Shown: positions 15,275 to 28,845, numbered from the stretch's first letter. The stretch is DNA of 64,000 nt from Candidatus Sericytochromatia bacterium (GCA_015272195.1 JACYMC010000148.1:10159-74158); one strand, 5' to 3'. The notes: generated from the sequence alone by a model not told the origin. Made by a program: numbers and translations.

Positions 15275-18200
15275 ATGACGAGTATTTTTTCCGGCAATCT
15301 CTACAATAACTATGTTAAAGACCAGAATACCGCTCGTCTGCAAAGGTTTGATGTCAACCGCTTTAACGCCAGTATTCCCGCTTTGTCAGAGCAAAGCCGC
15401 CGGGAGCAGGAGCTGCGTGAAGGCCTCGAGTACCACCAGGCCCGTATGGCCGATCTGCAAACCAAGCTTAACGAACTGACCGAAAAGCTCAATAACCTGT
15501 ATCGTCAGTTTATTGACTCGCAGGTCATGTTTCAGCGTGTAGGCCCCAGCAACAAGTATCACGGTACCAGCGATATGACCAACCGGCTGCGCAATGCCAC
15601 CGATGAAACCACGCCTTTCAACACCGGCCACCCGGCCGGTGTCAACGGCCTGTTGCCCTACGACAGTCCTGAGCGCATCCGCAACTACACCTATAATCCC
15701 TTCTTCGGCTCCAAGGCCATTGATGAAAGTGACGTCACTCTCAACCGCACCTTCTGGCGTGAACCCAACATCGTGCTGGAGGATGCCTATACCGAAAACG
15801 GGGCCTTCTGGTCCACGGTCTCTTACCTCTGGGGCTGGGATCTCGACCGCATCAATGCCACTTACGTCACCACCAATGATGATGAGCCTCTGCGTGGCAA
15901 CACCCATCTGCGCCTGAATAACACCGGCGGTCTGGGTCCCGGCACGGTGATCACCATCGGGGGTACCGAATACACCGTTTCCAATCTGGTGACCTACGAA
16001 GACAAAAACGGCAACACCGTCACCGATGTGCTGATCCCCCAGATCATCAGTCTGCCGGATGTCGGCACCACCGTCACCTGGGCGGCTGGCAGCGCAGAAG
16101 TTCAGACCGGCACCTTCCGTGAAACCTATAACAACTTACAGATCAATACCACCGCGCTGCAGCCCAACAAAGAGCAGCATCCGCCGGTGCGTACGGGTGA
16201 CCGCATTCCCATTGTCAACCAGAATGACCCCCGCGTCCCGCCGCCTGCGGTCAACTATCCCTTTCTGGCCATTGATGGGATTCGCCCGGGGGGCGCGGAC
16301 TTCAGCCACGCCCAGAACACCGAAGGCCGCAACGAAGTCGGCCAGGACAGCCTGAACTGGGGCTGGGAGTTTGACGATCTGCCCCTGGCGCTGGAAGTGA
16401 CCGGCACACGTCAGGATGCCAATGGTAATATTGTGGCCAGCGGTTACAAGGTGGTCTATGACATTCCCCGCACCCATCCCCAGTACGCGCGCTACCGGCA
16501 CCTCGACGGCACCGAGCCCATGATCATTGATGCGCCCACGGCGATGGTCAAAAACCGCATTCATCAGAACAGCTTTGACTATTCTGGTTTTATCGAACTG
16601 GGGGATGGCAGTTTTAACGCCAGTTATTCTACTATTCTCTCGCCCCTGCCAGGCCGTACCAATGCCGGTCACCCCAGCGGCACCAATGTCAGCCCCTACC
16701 CGGTCGACTTCCGCAACGAGTATCTGCACGCGGGCAATTACGCCCAGGATAGCAGCGGCAACTGGAACCAGAACCCGGCAACCTCCACCGCCCGCACTTA
16801 TATCGAGCTCAGTTCCTGCTCCCCCTTCAGCCTGGGTGCCAATACACACGTTTCATTCAACTACGATTATACGGTCACTCAGAATGCCGTTTCAGGCTTT
16901 TACAAGAGCCCCTCAGATGACGGTGCCGTACCTGGTACCTCAGGCAACGGCTTTCTGGCGCATACCTGGAGCGGTAGCAGTGTCAGCAACCCTTATCGCG
17001 GTTCAGTCGGAGGGTCGGGCCCGTTTGAGCCACCCCCACCTTATGCCGCTGTTGGGGCTACCTGGCCCGGTGGTCCCAATGCCTTTGAAGGTTACCCGAT
17101 TAACCGCGATTTTATTCAACCCGGCGTCAGTCTTCCCGAGACAGCGGGACAATTTGGGGTGATTCTCGGTGCGGTTAACACCGCTGGTGACCCCTTATCT
17201 GACCCGCGCTATGACCCCTTTCACTGGGGCGCGGGGATTGTCAGTCCGGGTATTGCCTCCGCGATTGAACCGACCAACACAGGCAATGGCGGCAATGGGT
17301 TGGGTCCGTTGCGAGTCAACAGTGTCGCTGCGCTGAACCTGGGCGGCTTGCCTGCCAATATCACGGTCAATGGCAATCCTTACACGGTCACCAGTATTGT
17401 TGGCAACACCATCTTCACCAGCACGCCCATCTCAGCCGCCGACCTGGCACCAGGCAATACGGTTGTGGGTACTGACGGCGTCAGCTCAACGGGCGTTGCT
17501 GTGGGCAATACCGGCAACGGTAGACCCAGCGCACTGATTGTTGGCAGTCCCACCACTTTTGGTATTGGGACCTTTGTTGGCGTCGACGGCTTCGTTGGAA
17601 CCTATGAAGTCGTTGGCTACACGCTGGCAGATGGTACAACCCCGGGGACTCCTCCTCCGGGCGATCCGGGCGGTCTGATTCTGAACCCTCCGCTCAGTGG
17701 TTTTCCAACCAGTGGTAATGTCTTTATTCCCGGCACGGGCGGTGGCGCCCCGGTGGGCGGTGGCTCTGATGAGTCTCTGCGTCTGGTCATGTCGCAGGAA
17801 CGTGAGCTGGGCAACCCGGCCACGCTTGAGAATGACAAGCTCTTTTTGCATGTGCTCTTTGATGGCGATATTCATGGCATTGATATCAACATCCGTGACT
17901 TTAAGATTGTATCCTACAGCTTTGGCAATCAGGGCACCTGGGAAAACGGCCTGTATAACCCGCTCAACGACACCACCCTCGGCAATGGTCCGCTGGACGT
18001 CACAGGCGATAACAGCCTTAGCGTTCAGAACGATGTGATCAACAAATACCAGGCCGATAAGTATAACTTCACCCAGTTTCATAACGAGTACAATAACGCG
18101 GCTGAAAATGGCGATCTCAAAGATATTGTGCGCAGCCCGTATGAGTATGCCTTGTTTAATATTGGCGCAGACAGTGTCAGTGGCGAATCTTCTTATCTCT

Positions 18201-21200
18201 ATGGTGAAACCTGGGTCGATATCAACAACCGTCGCATCAACCTGGGATTGGATGATTACAACAACAACACCCACCAGCCCGACTGGGCCAATGGCGCCGG
18301 TGAATCCACTTTCCAGGGCGGTGCCGTTACCGCACCCGCGACGGATCCCAATAACCCCAACTTCTTTTTGAGTGACAATGTGCAGGGCGTTTATGGTTTT
18401 ATTGCCCCTGTACACCCTGGCGATAGCTGCATTCAGAACACCCCCGGTGTGATTCAGACTGCGCTGAACGCCACAGTGGATGATGCGCTGCCCTATACCA
18501 CCCACCGTTACGAAGATCGCAGCCCCAATCACCTGTCAGCAGATCCTGCCGATCCCATGCGCACCTCGACGCCCAACGCCGGCGTGATCGCCGCCGCCGT
18601 GCCCAATTATTATGTGGGTACTGATGGGGTCAACTACACCAAAGCCAACCCCGGTATTGGTGATGGCGTGGTCGATCGCATCATGGGCGGCGATGATATC
18701 GACTACCGCCTCACAATCCCTACCACTGATCTCAACGTGCTGCAAAAAGAAAATGACATTGTGTTTAACTTTGGCAGCTTGCCCACCCGCAACTACTCCA
18801 TTGGCATTTACGAGCCCTTTATGGAGTACCGCAGCGTGCCCGGCTACCAGACCGTTGCGCGCTATCGCGTTGACGAAGCGGGCAATATCTACGACCGCTT
18901 TGGCGAAGGTTACTACGATCCCAATGATCCTGTCGATGCAGTGATCATGCAGGAGCTTTACCCCACCCGTGAACTGGGCAGCGGTACCAGTGCCGTGCCC
19001 CTGGTCAACGGCCAGGTCAGCAACTTTGATGGTACTTACGACAATCAGGGCAACTACGACCCCATCGACAGCGGCCTGCTCGGTCACAACCGCTTTTCAG
19101 AGCTGGGCGATGACTACAACCTCTTTGACTATGTGCCCGATCTGAAGGTGGATCCCTTTGCCGGGGATCCCAATATTCTGCGCGGTGAAGTTTATGTGGG
19201 CTCTTTGCCCACCAACTTTTACTATTACCGCGAAGGGCTCGATAACTCGCTCGACGGTCCCACCGGCGATTTGGCGGCGGGTGATCCCAATGGCCCGCTG
19301 CAGAATAACTTTAACCGCCAGGCTGCCCTGAACTTTGACGGCCGTTCGACCAATGTGGACGGTCAGTTCAACAGCCAGCACACGATTGTCTACAACACTA
19401 CCATGCCGACCTTCTCGACCGTCATGCTCGGTTACGCTGAACAGGATGCCCGCCTTAACAACCAGAAGGCCACCACCACCTTTGCTACCTGGGAAGGCTT
19501 CCCTGGCATGGGTGCGCCTACGGCCCCTGCCGTCCGACTCATCGGTACCACGGGTACAGTCGATAATGCGCTGGACGCCCTGGGCTTAAGCTACGATAAA
19601 TTTGCTGAAATGGATAACAATTCATCGATCACGGTGGATACACGCGTCGACTCCAGTCGCCAGGGCCATCTGCTGATTTATGAGTATGCCCCTGATTACA
19701 GTCAGGAGCCTATTCTGCGTACGGCCAATGTCATTGCCAACCCCACGGGCACGGGCGCGGCCTACGGCAACGGTAACGGTGGAAGCGTCTGGCTGAGTGA
19801 TGTCAGTTTTATTCAGGTGGGTGATGTGCTGACCTTTGATGATGGGACTGGACCCCGCACCAAAATTGTGACCGAACGCAACCTGACTGGCCCAGGCAAT
19901 GCAGGCTCCATCCGCTTTGAGGCAAATCAGCCAAACCCAGGAGATAACGTTCCTGTTGAAGGACCCATTACATTCGGCGTCTTCCGCAAGCGTGAAGCGG
20001 TGATGCGTGCCATTCCACACGCGATTCCGCTGCCGCTGGATCCCACAGATGATCCCTTTGTGTTTGACTCTTACAACGTCAAAACCACCATGGCCCGTAC
20101 CGGCTCGGTTTATGATCCGGTCAGCGACACAACAATTGTGCATGTTGACAACGCAGCGGCCTTTTTAACCTCACCGATTCCACCGACCATGACCATTGAG
20201 ATTGGCGCGCCGCCTTATTACACGGGTACCATTACCTCATCGGACGTGGATATCACCACCACGCCGAATATTATCCGCGTTCCTGGCAACGTGTCCCCGC
20301 TGCCGGTGTATGATACCCCGGTGGTCATGCGGGGGCCCCAGTTTACCGTACAGGTCGCTGACGGCGATGCGCCCAACTCTCAATTCACTATTACCTATGA
20401 CGACCGGGGCACCAATCTGCCGGGCAATATTGCCACGGTTGAGTTGTCACCCGAAATGGACCGGGCGGGCCGCTTTCTGGGTGATGATGCCCGTACGGTT
20501 GCCGATACTGAAACGGCCAACGTGGCGCCAGAGTACTTTGCCGGTTCACCCCCGGGTTATGTGCAGCCCGATGCGCAGATCAACCTGCAGCTGGTGGCCC
20601 AGGACAAAGACGGCAACCAGCAGCCGCGTCGCCTGCGTGAAATCCGTGTGACCATCGATTCTGGTGAGCAGATTATTCTGGGCCCCACGGGCGCCATTCG
20701 CCAGTATTATGGCACCAATGCCGCCTCTTTTAACGGCGATGGCACAGCAGCCAATGGCACACCCGATCCCAATGAACCGAATGGCATCGATATCAACGAA
20801 GCCTGGCCTGTGGCCCTCTACGACAAGTTCAACGATTTGCTGAATCCCACCTCCACAGACGATCTGGGTATTTCAGTGGGGTACTATCAGGGTATTCTGG
20901 ATGGTGCCACCACCACCGTGATTCCGGTGACCACTGTCGGTGAATTTGAGTTTGCCGAAGGCAAAGAAGTCACCATCAATGGTGAAACCCGTATCATTGA
21001 TACCGTGGACACTGGAGCCAACACCATTACTCTGACTGAGCCCCTGACCCGTCCGCCACGGGTGGGCGATCGTGTGAATCTGGGCAATAGCATCGGCACA
21101 GAAGACCTGATCATGTACCTCAACCGCAGCCAGGCCATGTCAACCAATGCGCCGATTGAAATTGAAATGGTCTGGCAGGACTATGAGGTGACGGGTTATC

Positions 21201-21562
21201 CGCCCACCACCACTTTACTGGCTGGCACCTATATAGAGCAGGTGGGCTTCAGAAAACCCAATCCCGGTGATGCCCCACAGGACGCCGACTACGATGCGTT
21301 GAACCACCTGGTGGTCAACAAAGGCCGCAGCGGTGGCTCAGGCGATAACGCCTTTGTGCAGGAACTGAAGCGCATTATTGACAATCCTGAGTACCAGGAG
21401 TTGCTGCGCTACGACCTGATGAAGAATGTGTTTATTTCACATGCTTCCAACGATCCCTACAACAACGTTGTGGCCTCCAAGCTGATGTTGACCTGGGATC
21501 GCAACCGCCGCCGGACAGAAATTCAGCTGACGTCGTTTACGGCCTTTTATAAGTCCGCCTAA
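15275..21562 (+). CDS. Giant (2095 aa) hypothetical protein, Asn/Gly/Thr/Pro/Asp-rich, with an N-terminal coiled coil and no signal peptide
   Basis: A single uninterrupted ORF with a strong RBS. aa ~35-90 are a heptad coiled coil (SEQSRREQELREGLEYHQARMADLQTKLNELTEKLNNLYRQF). A Gly-rich low-complexity tract lies at ~aa 650-830. There are at least four copies of a ~25-aa motif: ITIGGTEYTVSNL, ITVNGNPYTVTSI, VGDVLTFDDGTGPRTKIVTE, VTINGETRIIDTV. No recognisable catalytic motif. Confidence 0.75.
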   Translation: MTSIFSGNLYNNYVKDQNTARLQRFDVNRFNASIPALSEQSRREQELREGLEYHQARMADLQTKLNELTEKLNNLYRQFIDSQVMFQRVGPSNKYHGTSDMTNRLRNATDETTPFNTGHPAGVNGLLPYDSPERIRNYTYNPFFGSKAIDESDVTLNRTFWREPNIVLEDAYTENGAFWSTVSYLWGWDLDRINATYVTTNDDEPLRGNTHLRLNNTGGLGPGTVITIGGTEYTVSNLVTYEDKNGNTVTDVLIPQIISLPDVGTTVTWAAGSAEVQTGTFRETYNNLQINTTALQPNKEQHPPVRTGDRIPIVNQNDPRVPPPAVNYPFLAIDGIRPGGADFSHAQNTEGRNEVGQDSLNWGWEFDDLPLALEVTGTRQDANGNIVASGYKVVYDIPRTHPQYARYRHLDGTEPMIIDAPTAMVKNRIHQNSFDYSGFIELGDGSFNASYSTILSPLPGRTNAGHPSGTNVSPYPVDFRNEYLHAGNYAQDSSGNWNQNPATSTARTYIELSSCSPFSLGANTHVSFNYDYTVTQNAVSGFYKSPSDDGAVPGTSGNGFLAHTWSGSSVSNPYRGSVGGSGPFEPPPPYAAVGATWPGGPNAFEGYPINRDFIQPGVSLPETAGQFGVILGAVNTAGDPLSDPRYDPFHWGAGIVSPGIASAIEPTNTGNGGNGLGPLRVNSVAALNLGGLPANITVNGNPYTVTSIVGNTIFTSTPISAADLAPGNTVVGTDGVSSTGVAVGNTGNGRPSALIVGSPTTFGIGTFVGVDGFVGTYEVVGYTLADGTTPGTPPPGDPGGLILNPPLSGFPTSGNVFIPGTGGGAPVGGGSDESLRLVMSQERELGNPATLENDKLFLHVLFDGDIHGIDINIRDFKIVSYSFGNQGTWENGLYNPLNDTTLGNGPLDVTGDNSLSVQNDVINKYQADKYNFTQFHNEYNNAAENGDLKDIVRSPYEYALFNIGADSVSGESSYLYGETWVDINNRRINLGLDDYNNNTHQPDWANGAGESTFQGGAVTAPATDPNNPNFFLSDNVQGVYGFIAPVHPGDSCIQNTPGVIQTALNATVDDALPYTTHRYEDRSPNHLSADPADPMRTSTPNAGVIAAAVPNYYVGTDGVNYTKANPGIGDGVVDRIMGGDDIDYRLTIPTTDLNVLQKENDIVFNFGSLPTRNYSIGIYEPFMEYRSVPGYQTVARYRVDEAGNIYDRFGEGYYDPNDPVDAVIMQELYPTRELGSGTSAVPLVNGQVSNFDGTYDNQGNYDPIDSGLLGHNRFSELGDDYNLFDYVPDLKVDPFAGDPNILRGEVYVGSLPTNFYYYREGLDNSLDGPTGDLAAGDPNGPLQNNFNRQAALNFDGRSTNVDGQFNSQHTIVYNTTMPTFSTVMLGYAEQDARLNNQKATTTFATWEGFPGMGAPTAPAVRLIGTTGTVDNALDALGLSYDKFAEMDNNSSITVDTRVDSSRQGHLLIYEYAPDYSQEPILRTANVIANPTGTGAAYGNGNGGSVWLSDVSFIQVGDVLTFDDGTGPRTKIVTERNLTGPGNAGSIRFEANQPNPGDNVPVEGPITFGVFRKREAVMRAIPHAIPLPLDPTDDPFVFDSYNVKTTMARTGSVYDPVSDTTIVHVDNAAAFLTSPIPPTMTIEIGAPPYYTGTITSSDVDITTTPNIIRVPGNVSPLPVYDTPVVMRGPQFTVQVADGDAPNSQFTITYDDRGTNLPGNIATVELSPEMDRAGRFLGDDARTVADTETANVAPEYFAGSPPGYVQPDAQINLQLVAQDKDGNQQPRRLREIRVTIDSGEQIILGPTGAIRQYYGTNAASFNGDGTAANGTPDPNEPNGIDINEAWPVALYDKFNDLLNPTSTDDLGISVGYYQGILDGATTTVIPVTTVGEFEFAEGKEVTINGETRIIDTVDTGANTITLTEPLTRPPRVGDRVNLGNSIGTEDLIMYLNRSQAMSTNAPIEIEMVWQDYEVTGYPPTTTLLAGTYIEQVGFRKPNPGDAPQDADYDALNHLVVNKGRSGGSGDNAFVQELKRIIDNPEYQELLRYDLMKNVFISHASNDPYNNVVASKLMLTWDRNRRRTEIQLTSFTAFYKSA

Positions 21563-24500
21563 ATGCAGACCTGTCCGCAGCATCACCTTAAAACGGGTAA
21601 AATCTGCCGGGAGTGTGGCCATGTGTATCCCCTGGCAACAGGGGATACTTTTGGTGCACTGGAAGTCATTGAAAGAATACCTGGGCCTGCGCGGCTGCAT
21701 CTTTACCATTGCCGTCACCAGGATCAGGACTATGCGCTCTGGGAAGGGCTCGAAATTTACCAGCCCACTTACCGTGAGCAGATGATTCGTGTGCTGGACG
21801 CACAGCCTTTGTCCGGTGTGCCTGAAGTGCAGAATTTCTCGATTGATGATATGCCCAGTGAAGCCAATATTTTATATCTGTTGTACGACTGGGCTCCCTA
21901 TGCAAGCAGTCAGACGCTCGATAGCCTCAGTCAGCAGGCGGGTATTTTGCCGGCTGAGCAGATCCATCTGATCATGACGCAGCTGCTCGAACTTCTGGCT
22001 GAACTGGAGTTGCGCCAGTGGGTCTGGAACAGCTTTCACAGCCATTACCTTTATTTTGATCCAGAACAGCAGAAGGTTTTCCCAGGGCTGGCGTTTTATG
22101 CCCAGGAGTTGACCCCAGGTGCCATCAGTCCGGTGGTGTTTAAAGGTTTTTCACCGCCTGAGCAGATTCGCTCCGGCGAGGTGTTTCGGGAAACCGATCG
22201 CTTTGGCCTGGCCATGACGCTGGTGCAGTTGTGTACAGGTCTCTCGCCGGCGCTCTGGGCGCCTGATTTGCCCGGCTTCAAACGCTATCAGTACATCTGG
22301 GGCAAAGCGCTGATGGATTTTTATACCCAGCTGATGCAGCCGGTAGAACAGGTGCCCGCCAGCCGTCTGATCGACAGCTGGAAAGCCCTCAAAACAGATC
22401 TGCTGTCGCATAAAATCCTGCCGGCGATGCAGGAAGAGCTCCGGGTTTTTAATGCTGGTCTGCAGGCTTATACGGCTCAGGACCTCAATACGGCCCTCGA
22501 AAACTGGCTCAGTGTTCAGCGTGGAAGCCTGCACAATCCGCATCTGGCTGCTTATATTGCGCGCGCCCTCTGGAAAAAGCACCTGAAACATGAGGCCCTG
22601 GCCTGGTATGGCGAGGCCATCCGGCGTGAATCCCTGGGGCTGTTTTATCAGGAGGTGGGCGCCTGCTATGAAGCCGACAAGCAGACAGAACGGGCAGAGC
22701 GCGCTTACAGACAGGCCGTGACACGCATCCCCTATATGCCAGAGCCCTATAACGGCCTGGGTCGTTGTGCCAAAAACCGCCAGAATTTTAAAACCGCCAA
22801 ACTGTGTTTTGAAAAATCACTTCAGATTCATCCAACCTGGGAAGCCCGTGAAATGCTGGATGAAATCGCCGCCATTCAGTTTCCGACCACGCACAAAAGC
22901 AAACACCAGCCCCAGACCCCGACCCGGGCTTCTCTGCAAATTAACCTGACGCCAACCCTCTGGGAGCATTTTGATAAAAACAAAAATATTGCCGCCTACC
23001 GCGTCAAAGAAGTGGGAGAGCAAATTGGCCCTTATACCATTGACGCGGTTTTGCGCGAGCGCAATCTGGTCAAAGGCAACCGATCCTCTATTTATCGGGT
23101 GCATAACGCCGCTGCCGAATCGTTTTTTGTTAAGGAAGTGCTGCTGGATGTCTCTGGCAGCGGGACCTTTTACAAAGAAAAAGTTCTGTTGCAAAAGCTT
23201 AGTCATCCGGGTATTCCTCCCGTGCATGACAGCTTTGAAGCCAATGACTGTGGCTATCTGGTTCAGCCTTTTCTGCAAGTACCCTCTTTGGAGCAGTATC
23301 TGAATACCGAAGGCATTTTACCTGAAGCTGAAATCCGCGCGATTTTGACGCAGGGCTTGCAGCTGATTGCCTATCTGCAAAGCCAGCAGATCATTCATGC
23401 CGATATCAAACCCGAAAACCTGCACTGGGATGCTGCCGCCCAACAACTGTATCTGACCGACTTTGATATTGCCGTTGAGCACAAGCCCGCACGTCCCCAA
23501 AACAATTTTTCTGTGGGGGTGACGGCGGGTTTTGCTGCGCCTGAACAACTTGAAATCAAAGCGGTTAACCTCACAACAGATGTCTTTGCCCTCGCACTGA
23601 CCTGCCTCAATCTGAGCACAGGCTTAAATCCCAAACTCTTTTATCACCATCAGAAACGGGCTTACAGATCCTGTACCCAACTGCCGCAGTTGAGCCGGCC
23701 TTTTGGTAAATTTTTAGACAAACTGCTGACCTGCGATCTGAAACAACGCGCTCAGCGTTATCAGCAGGCCCAGGACCTGTTAGCTGAACTCCAGCAGGCC
23801 TTTGCCCAGGCTCCCAAAGTGCTGAGTAAAGCCCAGCGTGAAGTGGGGCATCTGATTCGGGAAGTGGCCCTTTGTCATCAGGATCCAGAGCGACTGGCTG
23901 CCATTGCAGCCCAGTTGCATCACAAGAGCCAGGACGCCAAAGTTGACTATCTGCTGGCTTTTGCTTATCTGGATCATCAACAGTGGGATGCGGCCTTTGT
24001 CGCCTACGATCGGGCCATGGCCAAAGATCCCCGCTGGCTGTTACCCTATTACGGCAAAAGTGCGGCCCTCGCCGATCAGGGCAAGCATTCTGATGCCATT
24101 GCCCTGCTTAAAAAAAGCCTTGATTACTGCAAAACCGAGAGCCTGCCTTACAGCTTGCTGGCCCGCTGCTTTATTGCCCAAAAAAAATTCAAACTGGCGC
24201 TGCAGCTTTATCAGAAAGCCTTGAAACTGGACCCCACCAACAAACAAATCTATCTCGATACCGCCCATTTGCACATCCGTCTGGGTGGATTTGAAAGCGC
24301 CCGCAAACTCTGTGAGCAGGCCCTGGAGTATGCCCCGACATCGGCCCGGGCCTTTCAGCTCCTGCAAATGATCTGCGGTATTCAGGAAAACTACCCCGCA
24401 GCCATTGAGTATGGTGAGCGGGCTGCCATGCTCAGACCCCATCGCATCAATGTTCAGTATGATCTGGGTTTCTCATATTTTCGCGCGGGTTACTATATCA

Positions 24501-24712
24501 AAGCGCTCAAACAATTTCAGCGCTGCCTGGAGTTGGATCCGGAGCATGTGCAAAGCCTTTATTATCTGGCTGACAGCTTACTGGAGCTGGGCCGTCTGGA
24601 AGAAGCGCGCAAATACTTTCAGAAAGTTCGTTTACATGCTGAACTGCAGGAAGCCGTCAAGCGTAAACTGGCGTTAATTGAGGACAGTCTATCTCAAAAC
24701 ACAGCAGCCTGA
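21563..24712 (+). CDS. Multidomain signalling protein: N-terminal Zn-ribbon, degenerate (pseudo)kinase domain, TPRs, active-looking Ser/Thr protein kinase domain, C-terminal TPR array
   Basis: 1049 aa. The ATG abuts the giant-protein TAA (TAAATG). CPQHH...CRECGH is a zinc ribbon. The first kinase-like domain lacks HRD/K. The second has VKEVLL (beta3 K), IIHADIKPENLHW (~23394-23417), LTDFDIAV, GFAAPEQL and DVFALALT. TPR-like repeats lie between the two kinase-like domains and at the C-terminus (e.g. AYLDHQQWDAAFVAYDRAMAKDP). Confidence 0.8.
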   Translation: MQTCPQHHLKTGKICRECGHVYPLATGDTFGALEVIERIPGPARLHLYHCRHQDQDYALWEGLEIYQPTYREQMIRVLDAQPLSGVPEVQNFSIDDMPSEANILYLLYDWAPYASSQTLDSLSQQAGILPAEQIHLIMTQLLELLAELELRQWVWNSFHSHYLYFDPEQQKVFPGLAFYAQELTPGAISPVVFKGFSPPEQIRSGEVFRETDRFGLAMTLVQLCTGLSPALWAPDLPGFKRYQYIWGKALMDFYTQLMQPVEQVPASRLIDSWKALKTDLLSHKILPAMQEELRVFNAGLQAYTAQDLNTALENWLSVQRGSLHNPHLAAYIARALWKKHLKHEALAWYGEAIRRESLGLFYQEVGACYEADKQTERAERAYRQAVTRIPYMPEPYNGLGRCAKNRQNFKTAKLCFEKSLQIHPTWEAREMLDEIAAIQFPTTHKSKHQPQTPTRASLQINLTPTLWEHFDKNKNIAAYRVKEVGEQIGPYTIDAVLRERNLVKGNRSSIYRVHNAAAESFFVKEVLLDVSGSGTFYKEKVLLQKLSHPGIPPVHDSFEANDCGYLVQPFLQVPSLEQYLNTEGILPEAEIRAILTQGLQLIAYLQSQQIIHADIKPENLHWDAAAQQLYLTDFDIAVEHKPARPQNNFSVGVTAGFAAPEQLEIKAVNLTTDVFALALTCLNLSTGLNPKLFYHHQKRAYRSCTQLPQLSRPFGKFLDKLLTCDLKQRAQRYQQAQDLLAELQQAFAQAPKVLSKAQREVGHLIREVALCHQDPERLAAIAAQLHHKSQDAKVDYLLAFAYLDHQQWDAAFVAYDRAMAKDPRWLLPYYGKSAALADQGKHSDAIALLKKSLDYCKTESLPYSLLARCFIAQKKFKLALQLYQKALKLDPTNKQIYLDTAHLHIRLGGFESARKLCEQALEYAPTSARAFQLLQMICGIQENYPAAIEYGERAAMLRPHRINVQYDLGFSYFRAGYYIKALKQFQRCLELDPEHVQSLYYLADSLLELGRLEEARKYFQKVRLHAELQEAVKRKLALIEDSLSQNTAA

Positions 24713-26191
24713 CTAAAACAGCAGGCCGTCAAAATCAGCGTCAACAAAGTGAAAGAAACAGACGCTGACCCGTGAGCCGCTGGGCAGAGGGTTGCGCCAG
24801 TGTGGATAACGGCTGCCCCGGTAGACAATGGCGTCTCCCATTTCCAGACGGACGGCTTCAATACCCTGCGGCAGCTCCAGATAAATCGGCCAGGCCTGTG
24901 CTCGGGTCTGCTCAGGATCTGTGTCCAGAACCAGTGAAACATTCCAGGCACATTGTTCCCGGTCGGTGTGGCGGGGCAGTCGGGCCCCTGAATGATACAG
25001 GGCAAAATAACAATAAGAAGCTTTCAGGGGTGTCTGGGTGATTTCTGAAATGACCGGATAAAACTGCTGGTGTAAAAACCGGCACATGGGCTCATTATGC
25101 ATGCCAAAACGATTGCTGACAAAGGGATCACCGTTTAGCAGATAACCTTCCTGGTGAATGCTTCGTAAGTAGTGTCTGGCTGCGGCAATCTGCAAAGGGT
25201 TCAGCAAACCGGGAATCACGCAGAAATCTGTCGCTGCAAGCTGTTTCTGCAGCGTCTGACGGTCTGGCCGGGACGCTGTCAGCAATAATCCGGCATCCTG
25301 CCAGGTTCGGCGCTCGGCCTCGGTCAGATCCGTTAGGGGCAGCTTACCTTCCAGCAGTGCCTGCAACCGCTCTTTATGTTCTGCAGGCACCTGAAAGGGG
25401 GTCCAGATGTGGTTGCGCGGATCTTTGAGCCAGAGCAGGGGTGGTTGCATCTGAATGCGGTCTGACACAAAGGGCAGTTGCACGGCTTCAGGTAAATCAG
25501 GACCCTCCTGCCAGCCCCAGCTGGGATTCAGCTGTAAAGATTCTGCCAGCGGCTGGACGCGCGCAGCATAAGGGTACAGCGGATCGTCTGCCTGCAGCCT
25601 GGGGGTATAAGATACCGCCTGCGGCACTTTATCGGGTGCACAGAGCAGGCCCAGCTGTTGCAGGATGCGGGCTTCCTGAACAGAGAAATGTTTGTGGGTC
25701 GCCGTAAAGAAGCGCCAGAGCAGACGGCAGATATCAGGCTGGCGTTCCCAGTCAAACAACTGGGCCCGCACATGCTGATGCCGCAGCGGCACGTCTACTT
25801 CCACCTGCAGGCGGGCCTGAAAATTAAAGCTCAGCCAATTTTGCTTGCTTTCTGGCGGCGGCTGGTAAGTTTGCAGTGCTGTTGATTCATCTGTTGCAGA
25901 GGCCAGGATGCCGCGTAGAGACAGTTTTTCAAAGGGCAATAAAAGCCCCATATGTCTGAGCAAGGCAATATCGGTCGCATGCAGCAAAGGCTGTTCTTCA
26001 GCCGGCTCAGAGGCTTGAAACAGGCTCCAGAAGATCTGGCAAAGTCGTGGATCGTCACTCCACTTGATAATAAAGGGTTGTTGGGGATCTGAATAACCAG
26101 GAACCCAGATTCCCAGCTTGAGATCGGCAAAAGGATGAATCACCCAGGGCATTACCTGAGGCCCCGGGTGAGACGTTGCCGGCATATGCAT
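24713..26191 (-). CDS. Hypothetical protein with a C-terminal Fe(II)/2-oxoglutarate-dependent oxygenase-like (cupin, HxD...H) domain
   Basis: 492 aa. C-terminus ...YHSGARLPRHTDREQ...(~50 aa)...RGSRYPHWRNP...RVSV gives an HxD...H facial-triad-like spacing, with an Arg/Ser downstream. The N-terminal ~300 aa carry three repeats ending in a GLLL motif (LLRHMGLLLPFEK, ILQQLGLLCAPDK, TWQDAGLLLTASR). The gene ends zero nt from the convergent kinase gene. Confidence 0.5.
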   Translation of the reverse strand: MHMPATSHPGPQVMPWVIHPFADLKLGIWVPGYSDPQQPFIIKWSDDPRLCQIFWSLFQASEPAEEQPLLHATDIALLRHMGLLLPFEKLSLRGILASATDESTALQTYQPPPESKQNWLSFNFQARLQVEVDVPLRHQHVRAQLFDWERQPDICRLLWRFFTATHKHFSVQEARILQQLGLLCAPDKVPQAVSYTPRLQADDPLYPYAARVQPLAESLQLNPSWGWQEGPDLPEAVQLPFVSDRIQMQPPLLWLKDPRNHIWTPFQVPAEHKERLQALLEGKLPLTDLTEAERRTWQDAGLLLTASRPDRQTLQKQLAATDFCVIPGLLNPLQIAAARHYLRSIHQEGYLLNGDPFVSNRFGMHNEPMCRFLHQQFYPVISEITQTPLKASYCYFALYHSGARLPRHTDREQCAWNVSLVLDTDPEQTRAQAWPIYLELPQGIEAVRLEMGDAIVYRGSRYPHWRNPLPSGSRVSVCFFHFVDADFDGLLF

Positions 26192-26196
26192 CCGGC

Positions 26197-28845
26197 TTAA
26201 AAAGCAGGTGCGACGGCGTTGCCGGTGTTGGCGTAGTTACCACCAATTTTAGGCCAGGGAGCGTCGGCCTTATTGGTGGCCAGCCCCTGAACATCCACTT
26301 TCAGTGAACGCAAATAGGTAAAATCACCATAATTGCCTGAGCGCGTTGTGATGTACATATAGCCATCGTGAAACGCATTGCCTGCAGAAAAGAAGCCGCC
26401 AGGAAATATCTGGCTTTTGACTTCACCGTCGACCGGATTTAACTCATAAATACGGCCATCCACAGTGGATGAGGCAATGTACAAGGCCAGACTGCCATCG
26501 GTTTTCTTGACCACGTCCGGTGAGCCAAAAAGCATCAGCGGAGGCCGCATCCGCCCGACCTGGGTTTTCCAGTTCAGAATCAGGGGATCGTTCCAGTTAT
26601 TGCCCTGCCGGAAAGAGTGCACTTCGCCGTAATCGTTGGCCACATAAATATGGGTTTCGCCGCCGATATTGGCGAGGGTTGGGGGAAAGTTGGTCTGGCC
26701 GGTTACCGCAAACTTGGCTTCGGTGGTATAAACCTTGGCCAGTTGACGCGATGCCGGGTGGTAGGCGTACAAATAGCCCTCAGAATCAAAGTTGTTGCCA
26801 CCGACATTAAACATTTTGTAGGCGGTGAAATACACGACCTCTTCGCCATTGGGCAATTGATCAATGACCGGGCTGCTGTTTTCGTGCAGCATCTCACCCT
26901 GTGGCAGGGGGAAGCGCAGGCGGCGCAGGTTGCCATAGACCTGCAGCTCTTGGTCCAGGCCATCGAGGGGATTGTTTTCGTTGACATCAATCACCACCAG
27001 CTCAGGCGCATTGGTTTCGTTGTTCTGGGCTCCCGTCAGGGCAAACAGGCGCTTACTGGGTACCGTTTCTCCGGTCACATTGCCGTCGGCATCTTTGATG
27101 GTGTCGGTATAGAGCTTTTCTGACAGAGCGCCACCTGTTGTAAAGTTCAGCTGAGAAGATCGTACGGGTAAGGTGTTGCCGTTATGATCCAGCTCATTCT
27201 CTATAAATTGACCGCCCAGGACTTTAGATGCTTTATACAGGGGGGCAAAGCCTACCAGCTGACCATCTTTGATTTTATAGATGCCCCGGAAGGGAAAATC
27301 AGAGTTTACGCCGTTAAATGCGGCATACACCACGTCGGTCTGTGCGCAGCCTTCGCCTTCGCGATCGAGCACCGGCACAAAACGCGTACGGTTCATATCC
27401 AGCAGGCGCGGGTTATCATCATCATGCGCACAGACCTGACATGCAGCGTCCGGATCGTCGGCCGGCTGGGCAAAATCATAACGCCAGAGGGTTTGCAGAT
27501 TATCCTGACGCAGAGCATAAACCGTGCCGTTGCCTGGTACGTTGCCTTCCAGATTAACCGGGTTGGCGTATCGGCGCGACATGACAAATACGGCTGGCTG
27601 CGATCCCGGGCCACCATTACAGCTGGTATCATCAGCAGTACGGGTCACACCCAGAGCAGGGTGAGGGCTGTCGATGCGGTTGAGATCGTTGCGGAAGACC
27701 ATGCCGCCAAACTGTCCATTGCCCAGCAGCTGAACAGCCTGGATGGTTTCCTGGCTGTCGCGGATGGTTACATCCAACACGCGGTTATTTAAAAACAGAC
27801 GCTTGGTCTCAGGGTTAAAGGCAAGGGTACCACCTGTCGAATCTCTTTGCTGCAAACGCTGCCGGCCGACCAGAAACAGAGGGAATCGGTAATCCGCTGG
27901 ATTGGCGTTTTGCCCTGATTCTGCGGTTAACTCAAGGGTGCTGCCCGCCAAAGAATGATCTGCCTGAATGATACCATCAGACAAATGTTCTGCAATTTTA
28001 AAGAAGTCAATATCGGCCAGTGAAATCGGGGGCGGCAGGGCCATGCCCTCCTCGCTTTCCGGCGTCAGTGCTTCAATACGCGAAAAGCGCACCAGACTGT
28101 TGCTGACCGGCAAAGCCAGTTCAGGCTCATTGCCACCCTGTTCCGTGGCCGGAAAATTAGCGGTAGGATTGCTGTCTGCTCCCGTAAAAGCATCGGCAAA
28201 AGCCTGAAGTTTATCGAGGTCCAGCTTGATCTGAAACTGAGGGTTCGACACTGTGCCGTCCAACTCGTAGCCGAGCTGCAGCGGTGATAGCGTGGTTTGC
28301 AGGGCTTCGAGAATGCGGGCTGCCACGGTGGTGCGCTGATTGATAACCACTTCTTCGGATGGAACGTGAAACGCTGCTTTAAGCTGCTGAATTTCACTCT
28401 GGTCATTATTATTCGAGTACAGACGGAGGGTTACCACCCAGTTAAAACCACCCGGTACATCGGCACCCAGCAGGAACTGATTGCCACTGACCGGTACAAA
28501 GCCGTTTTCGTCGGCGCCGTTGGCGTAAATAGGGGTACGTTGCCCCATGGCGTCTAAAAAGTACTTGTTCCAGATTTCAAGTTTGGCGTACTGGGCTGTG
28601 GCCACTTGCTGCGTGCTGAAGCCACCGCCTGCACCGGGTAAATCCACGCGAAAGCTCACCTGGTGGTTTTGCTGAGCGGCTTCCTGCTGTGCCTGGGCAA
28701 GCTGCTGGGCATACTGAGAGCTGACGCCCGACTGAGAGCTGACGCGCGGAGAAACCAGCGTTGGAGACGAGCCAGGAGCCATGCACGCTGATAAAGCCAA
28801 CGTCAAGGCGGCACTGAAAGCAAAACCTTTAGAAAAATACTTCAT
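26197..28845 (-). CDS. Secreted lipoprotein (882 aa) with a beta-propeller (PQQ/WD-like repeat) C-terminal region
   Basis: MKYFSKGFAFSAALTLALSAC (lipobox LSAC). A Gln-rich linker. C-terminal repeated GxxYxx/YVANDYGEVHSF / YIASSTVDGRIYEL blades. 5 nt upstream of the oxygenase gene. Confidence 0.6.
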   Translation of the reverse strand: MKYFSKGFAFSAALTLALSACMAPGSSPTLVSPRVSSQSGVSSQYAQQLAQAQQEAAQQNHQVSFRVDLPGAGGGFSTQQVATAQYAKLEIWNKYFLDAMGQRTPIYANGADENGFVPVSGNQFLLGADVPGGFNWVVTLRLYSNNNDQSEIQQLKAAFHVPSEEVVINQRTTVAARILEALQTTLSPLQLGYELDGTVSNPQFQIKLDLDKLQAFADAFTGADSNPTANFPATEQGGNEPELALPVSNSLVRFSRIEALTPESEEGMALPPPISLADIDFFKIAEHLSDGIIQADHSLAGSTLELTAESGQNANPADYRFPLFLVGRQRLQQRDSTGGTLAFNPETKRLFLNNRVLDVTIRDSQETIQAVQLLGNGQFGGMVFRNDLNRIDSPHPALGVTRTADDTSCNGGPGSQPAVFVMSRRYANPVNLEGNVPGNGTVYALRQDNLQTLWRYDFAQPADDPDAACQVCAHDDDNPRLLDMNRTRFVPVLDREGEGCAQTDVVYAAFNGVNSDFPFRGIYKIKDGQLVGFAPLYKASKVLGGQFIENELDHNGNTLPVRSSQLNFTTGGALSEKLYTDTIKDADGNVTGETVPSKRLFALTGAQNNETNAPELVVIDVNENNPLDGLDQELQVYGNLRRLRFPLPQGEMLHENSSPVIDQLPNGEEVVYFTAYKMFNVGGNNFDSEGYLYAYHPASRQLAKVYTTEAKFAVTGQTNFPPTLANIGGETHIYVANDYGEVHSFRQGNNWNDPLILNWKTQVGRMRPPLMLFGSPDVVKKTDGSLALYIASSTVDGRIYELNPVDGEVKSQIFPGGFFSAGNAFHDGYMYITTRSGNYGDFTYLRSLKVDVQGLATNKADAPWPKIGGNYANTGNAVAPAF

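What the first reader, a model, noticed from the sequence alone, without database searches (positions are those of the whole stretch)
21560..24712. Zn-ribbon, pseudokinase, TPR, Ser/Thr kinase, TPR protein translationally coupled (TAAATG) to the giant gene
Its start codon directly abuts the stop of the 2095-aa gene, which implies co-translation. The protein has two kinase-fold domains. The first has lost the catalytic motifs (SHYLYFDPEQ replaces HRDLKPEN). The second keeps the beta3 Lys, HADIKPEN, DFD and APE. TPR arrays lie between the two kinase-like domains and at the C-terminus, and a CPxH…CxxC zinc ribbon opens the N-terminus. Tandem pseudokinase-kinase architectures (JAK-like logic) are uncommon in bacteria. 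Its obvious candidate substrate or partner is the giant protein.
Basis: partly seen in the sequence, partly recalled or inferred. Interest (0 to 1): 0.7.

Follow-up and report, generated by a model that had tools for sequence, protein, structure and literature searches.

The report
Tandem pseudokinase-kinase partnered with giant protein
This is a real gene for a soluble bacterial signalling protein made of a dead and a probably live copy of the same zinc-finger/kinase/TPR module, and across an uncultured sister group of the cyanobacteria it always sits directly behind a 2,000-residue protein of unknown function, which gives a testable kinase-partner pair but no proven function.

Summary
ORF 21563-24712 (+) encodes a 1049-aa protein whose ATG abuts the TAA of the 2095-aa gene.

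- **Second domain.** Residues 501-731 are a Hanks-type kinase (Pfam E 1e-31). They keep K524, HADIKPEN, DFD and APE, but there is no glycine-rich loop.
- **First domain.** Residues ~27-285 are a paralogue of that kinase domain (BLASTP E 4e-15; profile-profile 98.8%). They lack the Lys, the catalytic Asp/Asn and the DFG Asp.
- **TPR arrays and zinc motif.** Both TPR arrays are present, and a conserved Cys-His-Cys-Cys motif opens the protein.
- **Origin.** In 8 of 14 orthologues a second zinc motif precedes the active domain. The protein is therefore a tandem duplication of a PknG-like zinc-ribbon/kinase/TPR module. The window's lineage lost the second motif.
- **Conserved pairing.** The giant-kinase pair, 1 nt of overlap to 16 nt apart, recurs in 15 loci from Sericytochromatia MAGs, down to 22% kinase identity. 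A beta-propeller lipoprotein gene accompanies it.
- **Exceptions.** One paralogous class of giants has no kinase.
- **RNA stem-loop.** A strong stem-loop of variable sequence sits in the first ~90 nt of the kinase ORF in all 13 type-A loci.

Both structure predictions failed. The giant's function and the kinase's substrate remain unknown. Verdict: a new variant of known kinds, of moderate interest.

The parts
15275..21562 (+). Giant gene: 2095 aa, 226 kDa, pI 4.4, rich in G/T/N/P/D, with 2 Cys. It has no signal peptide or TM segment, no Pfam/NCBIfam/PADLOC match, and near-invariant N-terminus (MTSIFSG) and C-terminus (..AYYKS[AIV]).
21560..21565 (+). TAAATG junction. The giant's stop directly abuts the kinase's start, with no Shine-Dalgarno-like sequence upstream in this lineage.
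   Evidence: Orthologous junctions run from 1 nt of overlap to 16 nt apart (TAATG overlap in L009 and L020; tGAGGAtATG in L006/7/15/17).
21563..24712 (+). Kinase gene, 1049 aa, soluble (no signal peptide or TM segment).
21563..21634 (+). N-terminal zinc-ribbon-like motif, aa 1-24: C4, H8, C15, C18.
   Evidence: The C-P-x-G-H...C-x-x-C-G motif is conserved in 12 of 14 orthologues. Only weak Pfam hits (E 0.04-0.09). Metal binding was not tested.
21625..21648 (+). RNA stem-loop inside the kinase ORF: 10-bp stem GTATCCCCTG/CAGGGGATAC, loop GCAA, then TTTTGG. It is the most stable 40-nt window of the whole two-gene operon.
   Evidence: MFE -29.9 kcal/mol for 21610-21665, z -4.76
21635..22417 (+). 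Pseudokinase domain, aa 25-285. W60 replaces the beta3 Lys, S157 the catalytic Asp, Y162 the Asn and L176 the DFG Asp. E200 (PPE), D212 and G226 are retained.
   Evidence: dN/dS 0.09-0.12.
22430..22867 (+). First TPR array, aa ~290-435.
22868..23017 (+). Linker, aa ~436-485. In 8 of 14 orthologues this position carries a second C-x-x-G-H...C-x-x-C motif, which this lineage has lost.
23018..23812 (+). Hanks-type Ser/Thr kinase domain, aa 486-750: K524, E539, H612-A-D614-I-K616-P-E-N619, D633-F-D, T654, A-P-E661, D673, R729. It has no GxGxxG loop.
23900..24652 (+). Second TPR array, aa ~780-1030 (about seven repeats).
26197..28845 (-). 882-aa lipoprotein (lipobox LSAC) with a C-terminal beta-propeller-like region. 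It is the third conserved member of the locus, present in 18 of the loci examined.
12040..14973 (-). 977-aa lipoprotein (LILSC), divergent from the giant gene. It is conserved only in the window's close relatives.
24713..26191 (-). 492-aa protein with no known domain, convergent with the kinase gene at zero spacing. It is conserved only in close relatives.

Best explanation
**What is shown**
- The gene encodes a soluble cytoplasmic protein built as zinc ribbon, pseudokinase, TPR, (lost zinc ribbon), Ser/Thr kinase, TPR.
- It arose by tandem duplication of a whole zinc-ribbon/kinase/TPR module, the layout known from PknG.
- The N-terminal copy lost every catalytic residue before the known Sericytochromatia diverged. 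It has been kept under purifying selection ever since.
- The C-terminal copy keeps the catalytic core.
- The gene is the distal cistron of a two-gene operon with a lineage-specific, acidic 226-kDa protein. A beta-propeller lipoprotein gene is part of the same conserved neighbourhood.

**What is inferred**
- The protein is the dedicated phospho-regulator of this giant-protein system.
- The TPR arrays and the pseudokinase dock the partner. The partner could be the giant itself, through its invariant termini, or a PknG-style relay from the envelope lipoprotein.
- The pseudokinase may also control the adjacent active domain, which would phosphorylate Ser/Thr on the giant or on its assembly or export factors.
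- Expression is tied to the giant gene by the abutting or overlapping stop-start junction.
- A strong stem-loop just after the giant's stop probably ends or stabilises most giant transcripts there. The structural protein would then be made in excess over the kinase.

The confidence of 0.55 is for the whole statement. The architecture, the duplication and the linkage are close to certain. The regulatory mechanism is about even odds.
For: - **Architecture.** Pfam Pkinase and TPR matches. The internal paralogy is shown by BLASTP E 4e-15 and by hhalign 98.8%, E 5.8e-17 over 235 columns.
- **Duplication of the whole module.** A second C-x-x-G-H...C-x-x-C motif sits just before the active domain in 8 of 14 orthologues, mirroring the N-terminal motif.
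- **Catalytic core.** H, D, P, N, DFG-D, APE-E, alphaF-D, G, P and R are invariant and the beta3 K nearly so across 11-14 orthologues. The best PDB relatives are Hanks kinases, E 4e-30.
- **Ancient pseudokinase.** No orthologue has the Lys, HxD..N or a conserved DFG Asp in domain 1.
- **Purifying selection.** dN/dS is 0.09-0.12 in domain 1 against 0.11-0.13 in the active domain.
- **Linkage.** The kinase follows the giant, 1 nt of overlap to 16 nt downstream, in 15 loci, and a kinase start follows it in L023. The lipoprotein is present in 18 loci.
- **Location.** No signal peptide or TM segment in the kinase or the giant. Lipoboxes are present in the neighbours.
- **Stem-loop.** It ranks 1-9 of about 3100 windows in all 13 type-A loci, with at least 8 different sequences. 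It is more stable than synonymous-codon shuffles, z -1.7 to -4.7. A comparable hairpin follows kinase-less giants.
- **PknG precedent.** PknG is a soluble Rdx-kinase-TPR protein encoded in an operon with a lipoprotein and a membrane protein (PMC8546545).
Against: - There is no biochemical evidence of any kind.
- The active domain has no glycine-rich loop in any orthologue. The alphaC Glu is not conserved across the family, so ATP binding or activity could be weak or unusual.
- One paralogous class of giants (type B: L005, L008, L011, L013, L022) has no adjacent kinase. The giant therefore does not strictly need a cis-encoded kinase.
- The giant's composition (pI 4.4, 2 Cys, G/T/N/D-rich) looks extracellular, which sits awkwardly with a cytoplasmic kinase acting on the mature protein.
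- Both AlphaFold models were unusable (pLDDT 37.7 and 34.9). The fold of domain 1 and any domain-domain contact are therefore unverified.
- The U-tract after the stem-loop is present in only some lineages.
Confidence: 0.55

Rival explanations
1. Both kinase-like domains are catalytically dead. The protein is a pure scaffold or chaperone that uses its two TPR arrays and two kinase folds to hold the giant protein, for folding, assembly or delivery to an export route.
For: - No orthologue has a GxGxxG loop in the second domain, and the alphaC Glu varies.
- Type-C orthologues have replaced the catalytic-loop Lys (HGDI[T/S]P).
- The TPR arrays are the most conserved parts (dN/dS 0.03-0.10).
- TPR proteins commonly act as chaperones for secreted substrates (established knowledge; the weak LcrH/SycD-type NCBIfam match is far below its cut-off).
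Against: The invariance of H-x-D, N, DFG-Asp, APE-Glu, alphaF-Asp and Arg, and the near-invariance of the beta3 Lys, at 21-28% overall identity is hard to explain without catalysis. The truly degenerate first domain shows what decay looks like in the same protein.
Confidence: 0.2
2. The kinase is a PknG-like signalling kinase whose substrates lie elsewhere, for example metabolic or transcriptional regulators or the nearby two-component proteins. Its position behind the giant gene reflects co-expression or sensing of the envelope through the lipoprotein, not action on the giant.
For: - PknG is a soluble Rdx-kinase-TPR protein in an operon with a lipoprotein and a membrane protein that feed it signals, and its substrate is encoded elsewhere (PMC8546545).
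- A lipoprotein (C1) is conserved in the locus. A multi-pass membrane protein (C3) sits upstream in 8 type-A loci.
- A histidine kinase gene recurs upstream in the window, L009, L010 and L020.
- Type-B giants do without a kinase.
Against: The stop-start junction with the giant is kept across all lineages, while the other neighbours vary. This points to the giant as the constant partner. No FHA-domain or other classic substrate gene was seen among the roughly 30 window ORFs scanned.
Confidence: 0.15
3. The locus is an anti-phage or conflict system in which a Ser/Thr kinase works with a very large sensor or effector protein.
For: The kinase domain matches PADLOC kinase models (PD-T4-6 up to E 3e-43, mad6, MkoA) and NCBIfam MADS6 and PglW.
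Against: - The matches cover only the generic kinase domain and lie far below the curated cut-offs (70.7 against 460 bits).
- The giant and all other neighbours have no PADLOC match, and the giant has no phage match.
- The locus sits among housekeeping genes (topoisomerase I, DprA, UvrD, KsgA).
- It is kept in conserved order in every Sericytochromatia MAG that was recovered, which is unlike a patchy defence island.
Confidence: 0.05

Closest known systems
PknG (Mycobacterium / Corynebacterium Ser/Thr kinase)
   Same: - It is a soluble kinase with no TM segment.
- A metal-binding Cys-knuckle domain lies immediately N-terminal to the catalytic core.
- A TPR domain lies C-terminal.
- The gene is in an operon that includes a lipoprotein (PMC8546545).
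- Each half of the protein here has this order of parts.
   Different: - Here the module is duplicated in tandem and the first copy is dead.
- The metal motif is C-P-x-G-H...C-x-x-C (Cys3His), not two CxxCG knuckles.
- No NCBIfam or PDB result places the domain near PknG in particular. The top PDB relatives are PknB/Stk1-type and DAPK-type kinases.
- The operon partners are a 2,000-aa orphan protein and a beta-propeller lipoprotein, not GlnX/GlnH.
Janus kinases (JAK/TYK2) pseudokinase-kinase tandem
   Same: A pseudokinase lies directly N-terminal to an active kinase in one polypeptide, both derived from a kinase ancestor. The logic of a dead domain available to regulate the live one is the same.
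   Different: - It is of bacterial origin and arose by an independent duplication.
- It is Ser/Thr-type (HxDxKxxN, T654), not a tyrosine kinase.
- A TPR array separates the two domains, and there is no FERM-SH2.
- The JAK JH2 domain binds ATP, whereas domain 1 here lacks all nucleotide-binding residues.
- No interdomain contact could be modelled.
Plant tandem kinase proteins (WTK1/Yr15, Pm24, Sr62 and others)
   Same: Kinase and pseudokinase domains are fused by duplication or fusion (PMC6170490, listed).
   Different: The order is usually kinase then pseudokinase. They are eukaryotic immune receptors, have no TPR or zinc ribbon, and have no operon partner.
Bacterial pseudokinase families of the bSTK atlas (CP1, DLHK, GLW, ActPs1-3, DYD)
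   Same: They are Hanks-derived bacterial domains that lack the VAIK-Lys, HRD-Asp and/or DFG-Asp (10.1101/2025.01.12.632604; PMC12599244).
   Different: Those are described as stand-alone pseudokinase proteins, and neither survey's text contains the word 'tandem'. Domain 1 here is too diverged to reach the Pfam Pkinase threshold (12.2 bits). Assignment to any of the seven families was not tested.
Threonine-phosphorylation control of secretion machines (T6SS PpkA/Fha1/PppA) and the T7SSb pseudokinase EssB/YukC
   Same: A Hanks kinase or pseudokinase fold is encoded inside a gene cluster for a large envelope or secretion structure and acts on it post-translationally. PpkA is from my own knowledge. 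YukC is covered by PMC9600267, listed.
   Different: No T6SS or T7SS components are present. PpkA and YukC are membrane proteins, whereas this one is soluble. The giant is not a known secretion substrate.

Membership tests
Hanks-type (eukaryote-like) Ser/Thr protein kinase, Pfam PF00069 - second domain | Profile match above the curated threshold | tested here: met
   110.7 bits against a cut-off of 31.7, residues 501-731. An orthologue profile hits solved Hanks kinases at E 4e-30.
Hanks-type (eukaryote-like) Ser/Thr protein kinase, Pfam PF00069 - second domain | Catalytic residues: beta3 Lys, HxD Asp, catalytic-loop Lys and Asn, DFG Asp, APE Glu, subdomain-XI Arg | tested here: met
   K524, D614, K616, N619, D633, E661 and R729 are present. 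They are invariant or nearly so in 11-14 orthologues. DFG reads DFD.
Hanks-type (eukaryote-like) Ser/Thr protein kinase, Pfam PF00069 - second domain | Glycine-rich loop GxGxxG | tested here: not met
   The loop reads LRERNLVKGNRSSIY in the window. No orthologue has GxGxxG.
Hanks-type (eukaryote-like) Ser/Thr protein kinase, Pfam PF00069 - second domain | Phosphotransfer activity | not testable with these tools
   This needs recombinant protein.
Pseudokinase (kinase fold lacking VAIK-Lys, HRD-Asp and/or DFG-Asp) - first domain | Homology to protein kinase domains | tested here: met
   BLASTP against its own kinase domain gives E 4e-15. hhalign gives 98.8%, E 5.8e-17. NCBIfam LanL kinase region matches at E 3.5e-5. 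Pfam Pkinase gives only 12.2 bits.
Pseudokinase (kinase fold lacking VAIK-Lys, HRD-Asp and/or DFG-Asp) - first domain | Loss of at least one of the three catalytic residues | tested here: met
   K to W60, D to S157, N to Y162 and DFG-D to L176 in the window. No orthologue restores them.
Pseudokinase (kinase fold lacking VAIK-Lys, HRD-Asp and/or DFG-Asp) - first domain | Kinase fold seen in a structure or a confident model | tested here: inconclusive
   The AlphaFold2 model of aa 1-480 with 3 sequences has mean pLDDT 37.7. Foldseek returns only TPR hits.
PknG family | Module order: metal-binding knuckle domain, kinase, C-terminal TPR | tested here: met
   This order is present twice in most orthologues. 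The metal motif is Cys3His rather than two CxxCG knuckles.
PknG family | Sequence membership (closest relatives are PknG) | tested here: not met
   No PknG model or chain appears among the best NCBIfam or PDB matches. All named kinase models fall far below their cut-offs.
PknG family | glnX-glnH-pknG operon | tested here: not met
   The neighbours are the giant, a beta-propeller lipoprotein and lineage-specific genes.
Zinc ribbon / rubredoxin-like knuckle | Four conserved metal ligands in two knuckles | tested here: met
   C4, H8, C15 and C18 in the window. The motif C-P-x-G-H...C-x-x-C-G is present in 12 of 14 orthologues.
Zinc ribbon / rubredoxin-like knuckle | Profile match or metal content | tested here: inconclusive
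   The best Pfam matches are E 0.04-0.09. Metal content is not testable here.
TPR repeat proteins | Profile matches above threshold | tested here: met
   TPR_2 scores 121.9 bits for the whole protein. The middle array alone scores 39.4 bits against a cut-off of 27.
Kinase-based anti-phage systems (PD-T4-6, MADS MAD6, BREX PglW) | Match above the family threshold and the companion genes of the system | tested here: not met
   MAD6 scores 70.7 against 460 bits and PglW 30.6 against 990 bits. No companion gene has a PADLOC hit.

The most novel reading that the evidence does not exclude
Sericytochromatia carry a lineage-specific, so far undescribed cell-structure system. It consists of a ~2,000-residue acidic protein with invariant termini, a beta-propeller lipoprotein and a dedicated tandem pseudokinase-kinase.

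In this reading:
- The kinase binds the giant through its TPR arrays and phosphorylates it or its export or assembly partners, which licenses assembly.
- The dead domain allosterically gates the live one. This would be an independent bacterial invention of JAK-type regulation, made by duplicating a PknG-like module.
- The stem-loop embedded in the zinc-ribbon codons sets the giant-to-kinase expression ratio.
Probability: 0.3. Interest if true: 0.7.

Novelty: new variant of a known kind. Interest (0 to 1): 0.55.

Why it matters
- **Pseudokinase-kinase tandems.** They are a central regulatory device in animals (JAKs) and plants (tandem kinase immune receptors). Two recent surveys of bacterial kinases and pseudokinases do not describe such tandems.
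- **Traceable origin.** Here the origin is unusually clear, because a whole zinc-ribbon/kinase/TPR module was duplicated. The live and dead copies can be compared within one protein across a whole bacterial class.
- **A candidate partner.** The strict linkage to one giant orphan protein supplies a candidate partner. That is rare for bacterial Ser/Thr kinases, whose substrates are usually unknown.
- **An uncharacterised protein family.** The giant family has 37 representatives among 1.84 billion proteins. It is a conserved, probably abundant component of a poorly known sister lineage of the cyanobacteria.
- **Limits.** All of the organisms are uncultured, both structure predictions failed, and nothing about function is shown.

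Tried and rejected
**Searches and models that gave nothing usable**
- The search for homologous proteins with the alignment of first domains (A3) returned nothing, not even the query itself.
- The runs that were accepted gave unusable models:
  - kinase aa 1-480 with 3 sequences, pLDDT 37.7;
  - giant aa 1-1200 with 11 sequences, pLDDT 34.9.
- Foldseek on those models gave nothing at E <= 0.001.
  - The kinase model matched only TPR proteins.
  - The giant model's top hits were phage baseplate proteins at E 5e-3, driven by one small confident beta-barrel. I do not rely on this.
- The metagenome scan from the kinase side failed. A3 has no stretch conserved enough, and A8 found no relative. The reciprocal question of whether every such kinase has a giant is therefore untested.
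- Pfam, NCBIfam and PADLOC found nothing for the giant. Pfam also found nothing informative for distant proteins that share only its N-terminal module.
- There is no phage match for the giant and no Rfam family anywhere in the window.

**Readings considered and rejected**
- A defence system: see the rival explanations.
- A single fused or read-through giant-kinase protein. The two ORFs are in the same frame in the window, separated by one TAA, but orthologues use different frames and overlaps.
- The stem-loop as a by-product of the zinc-knuckle codons. It is more stable than synonymous-codon shuffles, and it is formed by different codons in different lineages.

**Weak lead**
- Ser183 and Ser1325 are conserved only in kinase-linked giants. 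The kinase-less giants form one tight clade, so this could simply reflect shared ancestry.


Full report
**Observation.** The window holds an ORF at 21563..24712 (+) of 1049 aa. Directly upstream lies an ORF at 15275..21562 (+) of 2095 aa. The DNA reads gcc-TAA-ATG-cag, so the giant's stop abuts the kinase's start with no spacer. An identical protein is on record from a MAG annotated as Candidatus Sericytochromatia bacterium. The flanking genes are housekeeping ones: topoisomerase I, DprA, UvrD, KsgA and an acyl-CoA ligase. The locus is therefore chromosomal, not an island.

**Domains of the 1049-aa protein.**
- Pfam places a protein kinase domain at residues 501-731 (E 1e-31, 110.7 bits against a cut-off of 31.7).
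- A long TPR array covers about 780-1030.
- A shorter TPR array at about 290-435 is confirmed when that segment is scanned alone (TPR_2 E 4e-10).
- The second kinase domain has VKE with K524, E539 in helix C, H612-A-D-I-K-P-E-N619, D633-F-D, T654 and A-P-E661. This is the HxDxKxxN / T-x-x-Y-x-x-P-E signature of Ser/Thr kinases (established knowledge).
- It has no GxGxxG loop.
- Its closest solved relatives are ordinary Hanks kinases such as S. aureus PknB/Stk1-type proteins and DAPKs (profile search E 4e-30).
- It reaches no named NCBIfam kinase family.

**The first domain is a true pseudokinase.**
- Pfam alone does not see it (Pkinase E 0.11).
- It aligns to the protein's own kinase domain with 30% identity over 168 residues, E 4e-15.
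- Profiles built from 11 orthologues of each domain align over 235 columns, from the G-loop region to the C-lobe, with hhalign probability 98.8% and E 5.8e-17.
- Scanned alone, it weakly matches the kinase region of LanL (E 3.5e-5).
- In these alignments K524 corresponds to W60, D614 to S157, K616 to H159, N619 to Y162 and D633 to L176. E661, D673 and G687 correspond to the retained E200, D212 and G226.
- I could not confirm the fold structurally. The only alignment the prediction tool accepted had three close sequences, and the model was unusable (pLDDT 37.7). The fold search found only the TPR part.

**Related loci.** Only two other full-length homologues turned up in the word-indexed protein search, at 85% and 80% identity. 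Both have the same neighbourhood.
- Searching with the giant instead gave 44 homologues of 1,700-2,200 aa. None has a Pfam domain, and every one that carries an organism name comes from a Sericytochromatia MAG.
- A scan of one genome per species returned 18 loci, from MAGs labelled Sericytochromatia or Blackallbacteria and one labelled Cyanobacteria bacterium UBA7694.
- A metagenome scan added four more loci.
- tblastn and ORF calling show a 920-1125-aa protein that aligns to the window's kinase over its whole length at 22-25% identity.
  - It starts between 1 nt of overlap and 16 nt after the giant's stop in L004, L006, L007, L009, L010, L015, L017, L018, L019, L020, L021 and L024, as well as in the close relatives.
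  - L023 shows a C-P-K-G-H start before its contig ends.
- Junctions include TAATG overlaps and tGAGGAtATG, where a Shine-Dalgarno sequence overlaps the stop. The pairing is therefore old and tightly kept.

**The pairing is not universal.** Clustering the ORFs of all loci shows a conserved core. It comprises the giant (19 loci), a lipoprotein with a beta-propeller-like C-terminus homologous to the window's 882-aa protein at 26197-28845 (18 loci), and the kinase (15 loci). Three arrangements exist:

| Type | Arrangement | Loci or notes |
|---|---|---|
| A | giant, kinase, then the lipoprotein on the opposite strand | Often with a multi-pass membrane protein and an acidic coiled-coil protein upstream |
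| B | lipoprotein, giant, no kinase | L005, L008, L011, L013, L022 |
| C | lipoprotein, giant, shorter kinase | L018, L021; the kinase has no zinc motifs |

Most MAGs carry a type-A locus plus a type-B or type-C locus.

**Evolution of the kinase protein.** Evidence comes from an alignment of 14 orthologues.
- In the second domain H612, D614, P617, N619, D633, E661, D673, G687, P690 and R729 are invariant, and K524 is nearly so (Arg in L004). This holds although overall identity is only 21-28%.
- In the first domain no orthologue has the beta3 Lys, an HxD..N loop or a conserved DFG Asp. The loss is therefore ancient.
- Between the window and its two close relatives, dN/dS is 0.09-0.12 for the first domain, 0.11-0.13 for the second and 0.03-0.10 for the TPR arrays. 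The dead domain is maintained, not decaying.
- The N-terminal motif is conserved as C-P-x-G-H...C-x-x-C-G in 12 of 14 orthologues.
- In 8 of 14 orthologues a second C-x-x-G-H...C-x-x-C motif sits just before the active domain.
- The protein is thus two copies of a zinc-ribbon/kinase/TPR module. The window's lineage has lost the second zinc motif.
- That module order is the one described for PknG, which is also soluble and encoded with a lipoprotein and a membrane protein (PMC8546545). By sequence, however, this kinase is not a PknG relative.

**The giant.**
- It is 226 kDa with pI 4.4, is rich in Gly, Thr, Asn, Pro and Asp, and has two Cys.
- It has no signal peptide or TM segment. The neighbouring 977-, 882- and 671-aa proteins have lipoboxes.
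- Its N-terminus (MTSIFSG...) and C-terminus (...AYYKS[AIV]) are nearly invariant, while the middle varies.
- A profile of its first 1,200 residues finds only 37 proteins among 1.84 billion representatives. About fifteen of them (1,300-2,400 aa) share only the N-terminal ~220 positions. Those I scanned have no informative Pfam domain.
- It has no PADLOC, NCBIfam or phage match.
- The AlphaFold model was unusable except for one small beta-barrel, and the fold search gave nothing significant.
- Its function is unknown. Its composition suggests a surface or secreted structural protein, which is an inference.

**An RNA feature at the junction.** The terminator scan flagged a 10-bp stem at 21625-21648 followed by TTTTGG, 62 nt after the giant's stop and inside the kinase ORF. 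The 56-nt context folds at -29.9 kcal/mol, z -4.76.
- I slid a 40-nt window over the whole giant-plus-kinase operon. The most stable or nearly most stable window (rank 1-9 of about 3,100) lies 10-55 nt into the kinase ORF in all 13 type-A loci.
- At least eight different stem sequences and registers are involved. The feature is absent from type-C loci.
- The native sequences are more stable than synonymous-codon shuffles that keep the protein (z -1.7 to -4.7). None of 200 shuffles reaches the native value in 7 of 11 loci.
- L009 and L010 differ by paired changes on both arms of the stem (my reading of the sequences printed).
- Kinase-less type-B giants also have a strong hairpin 5-40 nt after their stop.
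- The structure therefore seems to belong to the 3' end of the giant cistron.
- My reading is an inference. I take it to be a partial terminator or a 3'-end stabiliser that lets the giant be made in excess over the kinase. It may also make kinase translation depend on ribosomes arriving from the giant.
- A U-tract is present in only some lineages.

**Mechanism.**
- *Shown:* the architecture, the internal duplication, the conservation of catalytic residues in one copy and their absence in the other, purifying selection on both, operon linkage with the giant and the lipoprotein, and the conserved stem-loop.
- *Inferred:* the protein is the dedicated regulator of the giant-protein system. The TPR arrays and the pseudokinase act as docking or allosteric parts, and the second domain acts as the catalytic output.
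- *Rivals:*
  - a catalytically dead scaffold or chaperone, because there is no G-loop;
  - a PknG-like signalling kinase with substrates elsewhere, which receives input from the lipoprotein;
  - a defence system, which is unlikely given the generic, sub-threshold matches and the conserved core-genome context.

**Comparison with known systems, and novelty.** Each half resembles PknG in layout. The whole resembles JAKs and plant tandem kinases in logic. It is a member of none of these.
- Two recent surveys of bacterial Ser/Thr kinases and pseudokinases list seven pseudokinase families and note C-terminal TPRs in five kinase families. Neither text contains the word 'tandem'.
- I therefore rate this a new variant of a known kind.
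- Interest is moderate. The case is clean and evolutionarily transparent and comes with a built-in candidate partner. But the organisms are uncultured, no structure could be obtained and function is unproven.

Noticed in passing
window 21625-21648 (+); orthologous positions +10..+55 nt of the kinase start in L001, L002, L004, L006, L007, L009, L010, L015, L017, L019, L020, L024: The strongest, or nearly strongest, local RNA stem-loop of the whole ~9.4-kb giant-plus-kinase operon lies in the first ~90 nt of the kinase ORF in every type-A locus. At least eight different stem sequences are involved. It is more stable than synonymous-codon shuffles and is absent from type-C loci. Type-B giants have a comparable hairpin just after their stop.
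   Followed up: yes
window 22958-23011 (kinase aa ~466-483); L006, L007, L009, L010, L015, L017, L019, L020 at the same alignment position: Eight of 14 orthologues carry a second C-x-x-G-H...C-x-x-C zinc motif just before the active kinase domain. The window's lineage has lost it. This shows the protein is a duplicated zinc-ribbon/kinase/TPR module.
   Followed up: yes
window 15275-24712: The giant and kinase ORFs are in the same reading frame in the window, separated by a single TAA. Read-through would give a 3,145-aa fusion. Orthologues use other frames, 4-nt gaps or 1-nt overlaps, so this looks incidental.
   Followed up: partly
L005, L008, L011, L013, L022 (type B); L018, L021 (type C): Most Sericytochromatia MAGs carry two giant loci: a type-A locus with the full kinase, plus a second locus. 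In the second locus the lipoprotein gene precedes the giant, and the kinase is either absent (B) or shorter (C). The type-C kinase has no zinc motif and reads HGDI[T/S]P.
   Followed up: partly
P0170-P0183, P0166 (proteins): About fifteen other very large proteins (1,300-2,400 aa) share only the giant's N-terminal ~220-residue module (E 1e-23 to 1e-35). This suggests a common N-terminal 'head' on different giant bodies. Those scanned have no informative Pfam domain.
   Followed up: partly
window 12040-14973 (-), 26197-28845 (-), 29267-31282 (+): Three large neighbours have lipoprotein signal peptides (LILSC, LSAC, VSC), and two have beta-propeller-like regions. The giant and the kinase have no export signal.
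   Followed up: partly
window 15899-16132 (giant aa ~209-286): This is a lineage-specific insertion in the giant and the only part modelled with confidence (pLDDT 70-84), as a small beta-barrel. Similar G-x-x-V-x-I-x-G-x-x-Y-T-V segments recur further along the protein. The top Foldseek hits were phage and diffocin baseplate proteins but were not significant (E 5e-3).
   Followed up: partly
giant aa 183 and 1325 (window 15821-15823 and 19247-19249): Ser at these positions is (near-)invariant in the 14 kinase-linked giants and is Ala or Gly in all five kinase-less giants. They are candidate phospho-sites, but the kinase-less giants are one tight clade, so this may reflect shared ancestry.
   Followed up: partly
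window 24710-24715: The kinase's stop codon (24710-24712) directly abuts the stop codon of the convergent 492-aa ORF (24713-24715). No intergenic space is left for a terminator.
   Followed up: no
window 8920-12002 (-); L009, L010, L020 upstream edges: A PAS histidine kinase and a hybrid receiver-histidine kinase lie just upstream of the locus. A homologous histidine kinase (38-39% identity) recurs about 9 kb upstream of the giant in three distant type-A loci.
   Followed up: no
L007 22064-25836; also L006, L015, L017: In one clade the locus continues with an ABC exporter-type gene (590 aa) and a radical-SAM-like gene (~660-685 aa, CxxxCxxC). I read this from the sequences only; no profile search was run.
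   Followed up: no
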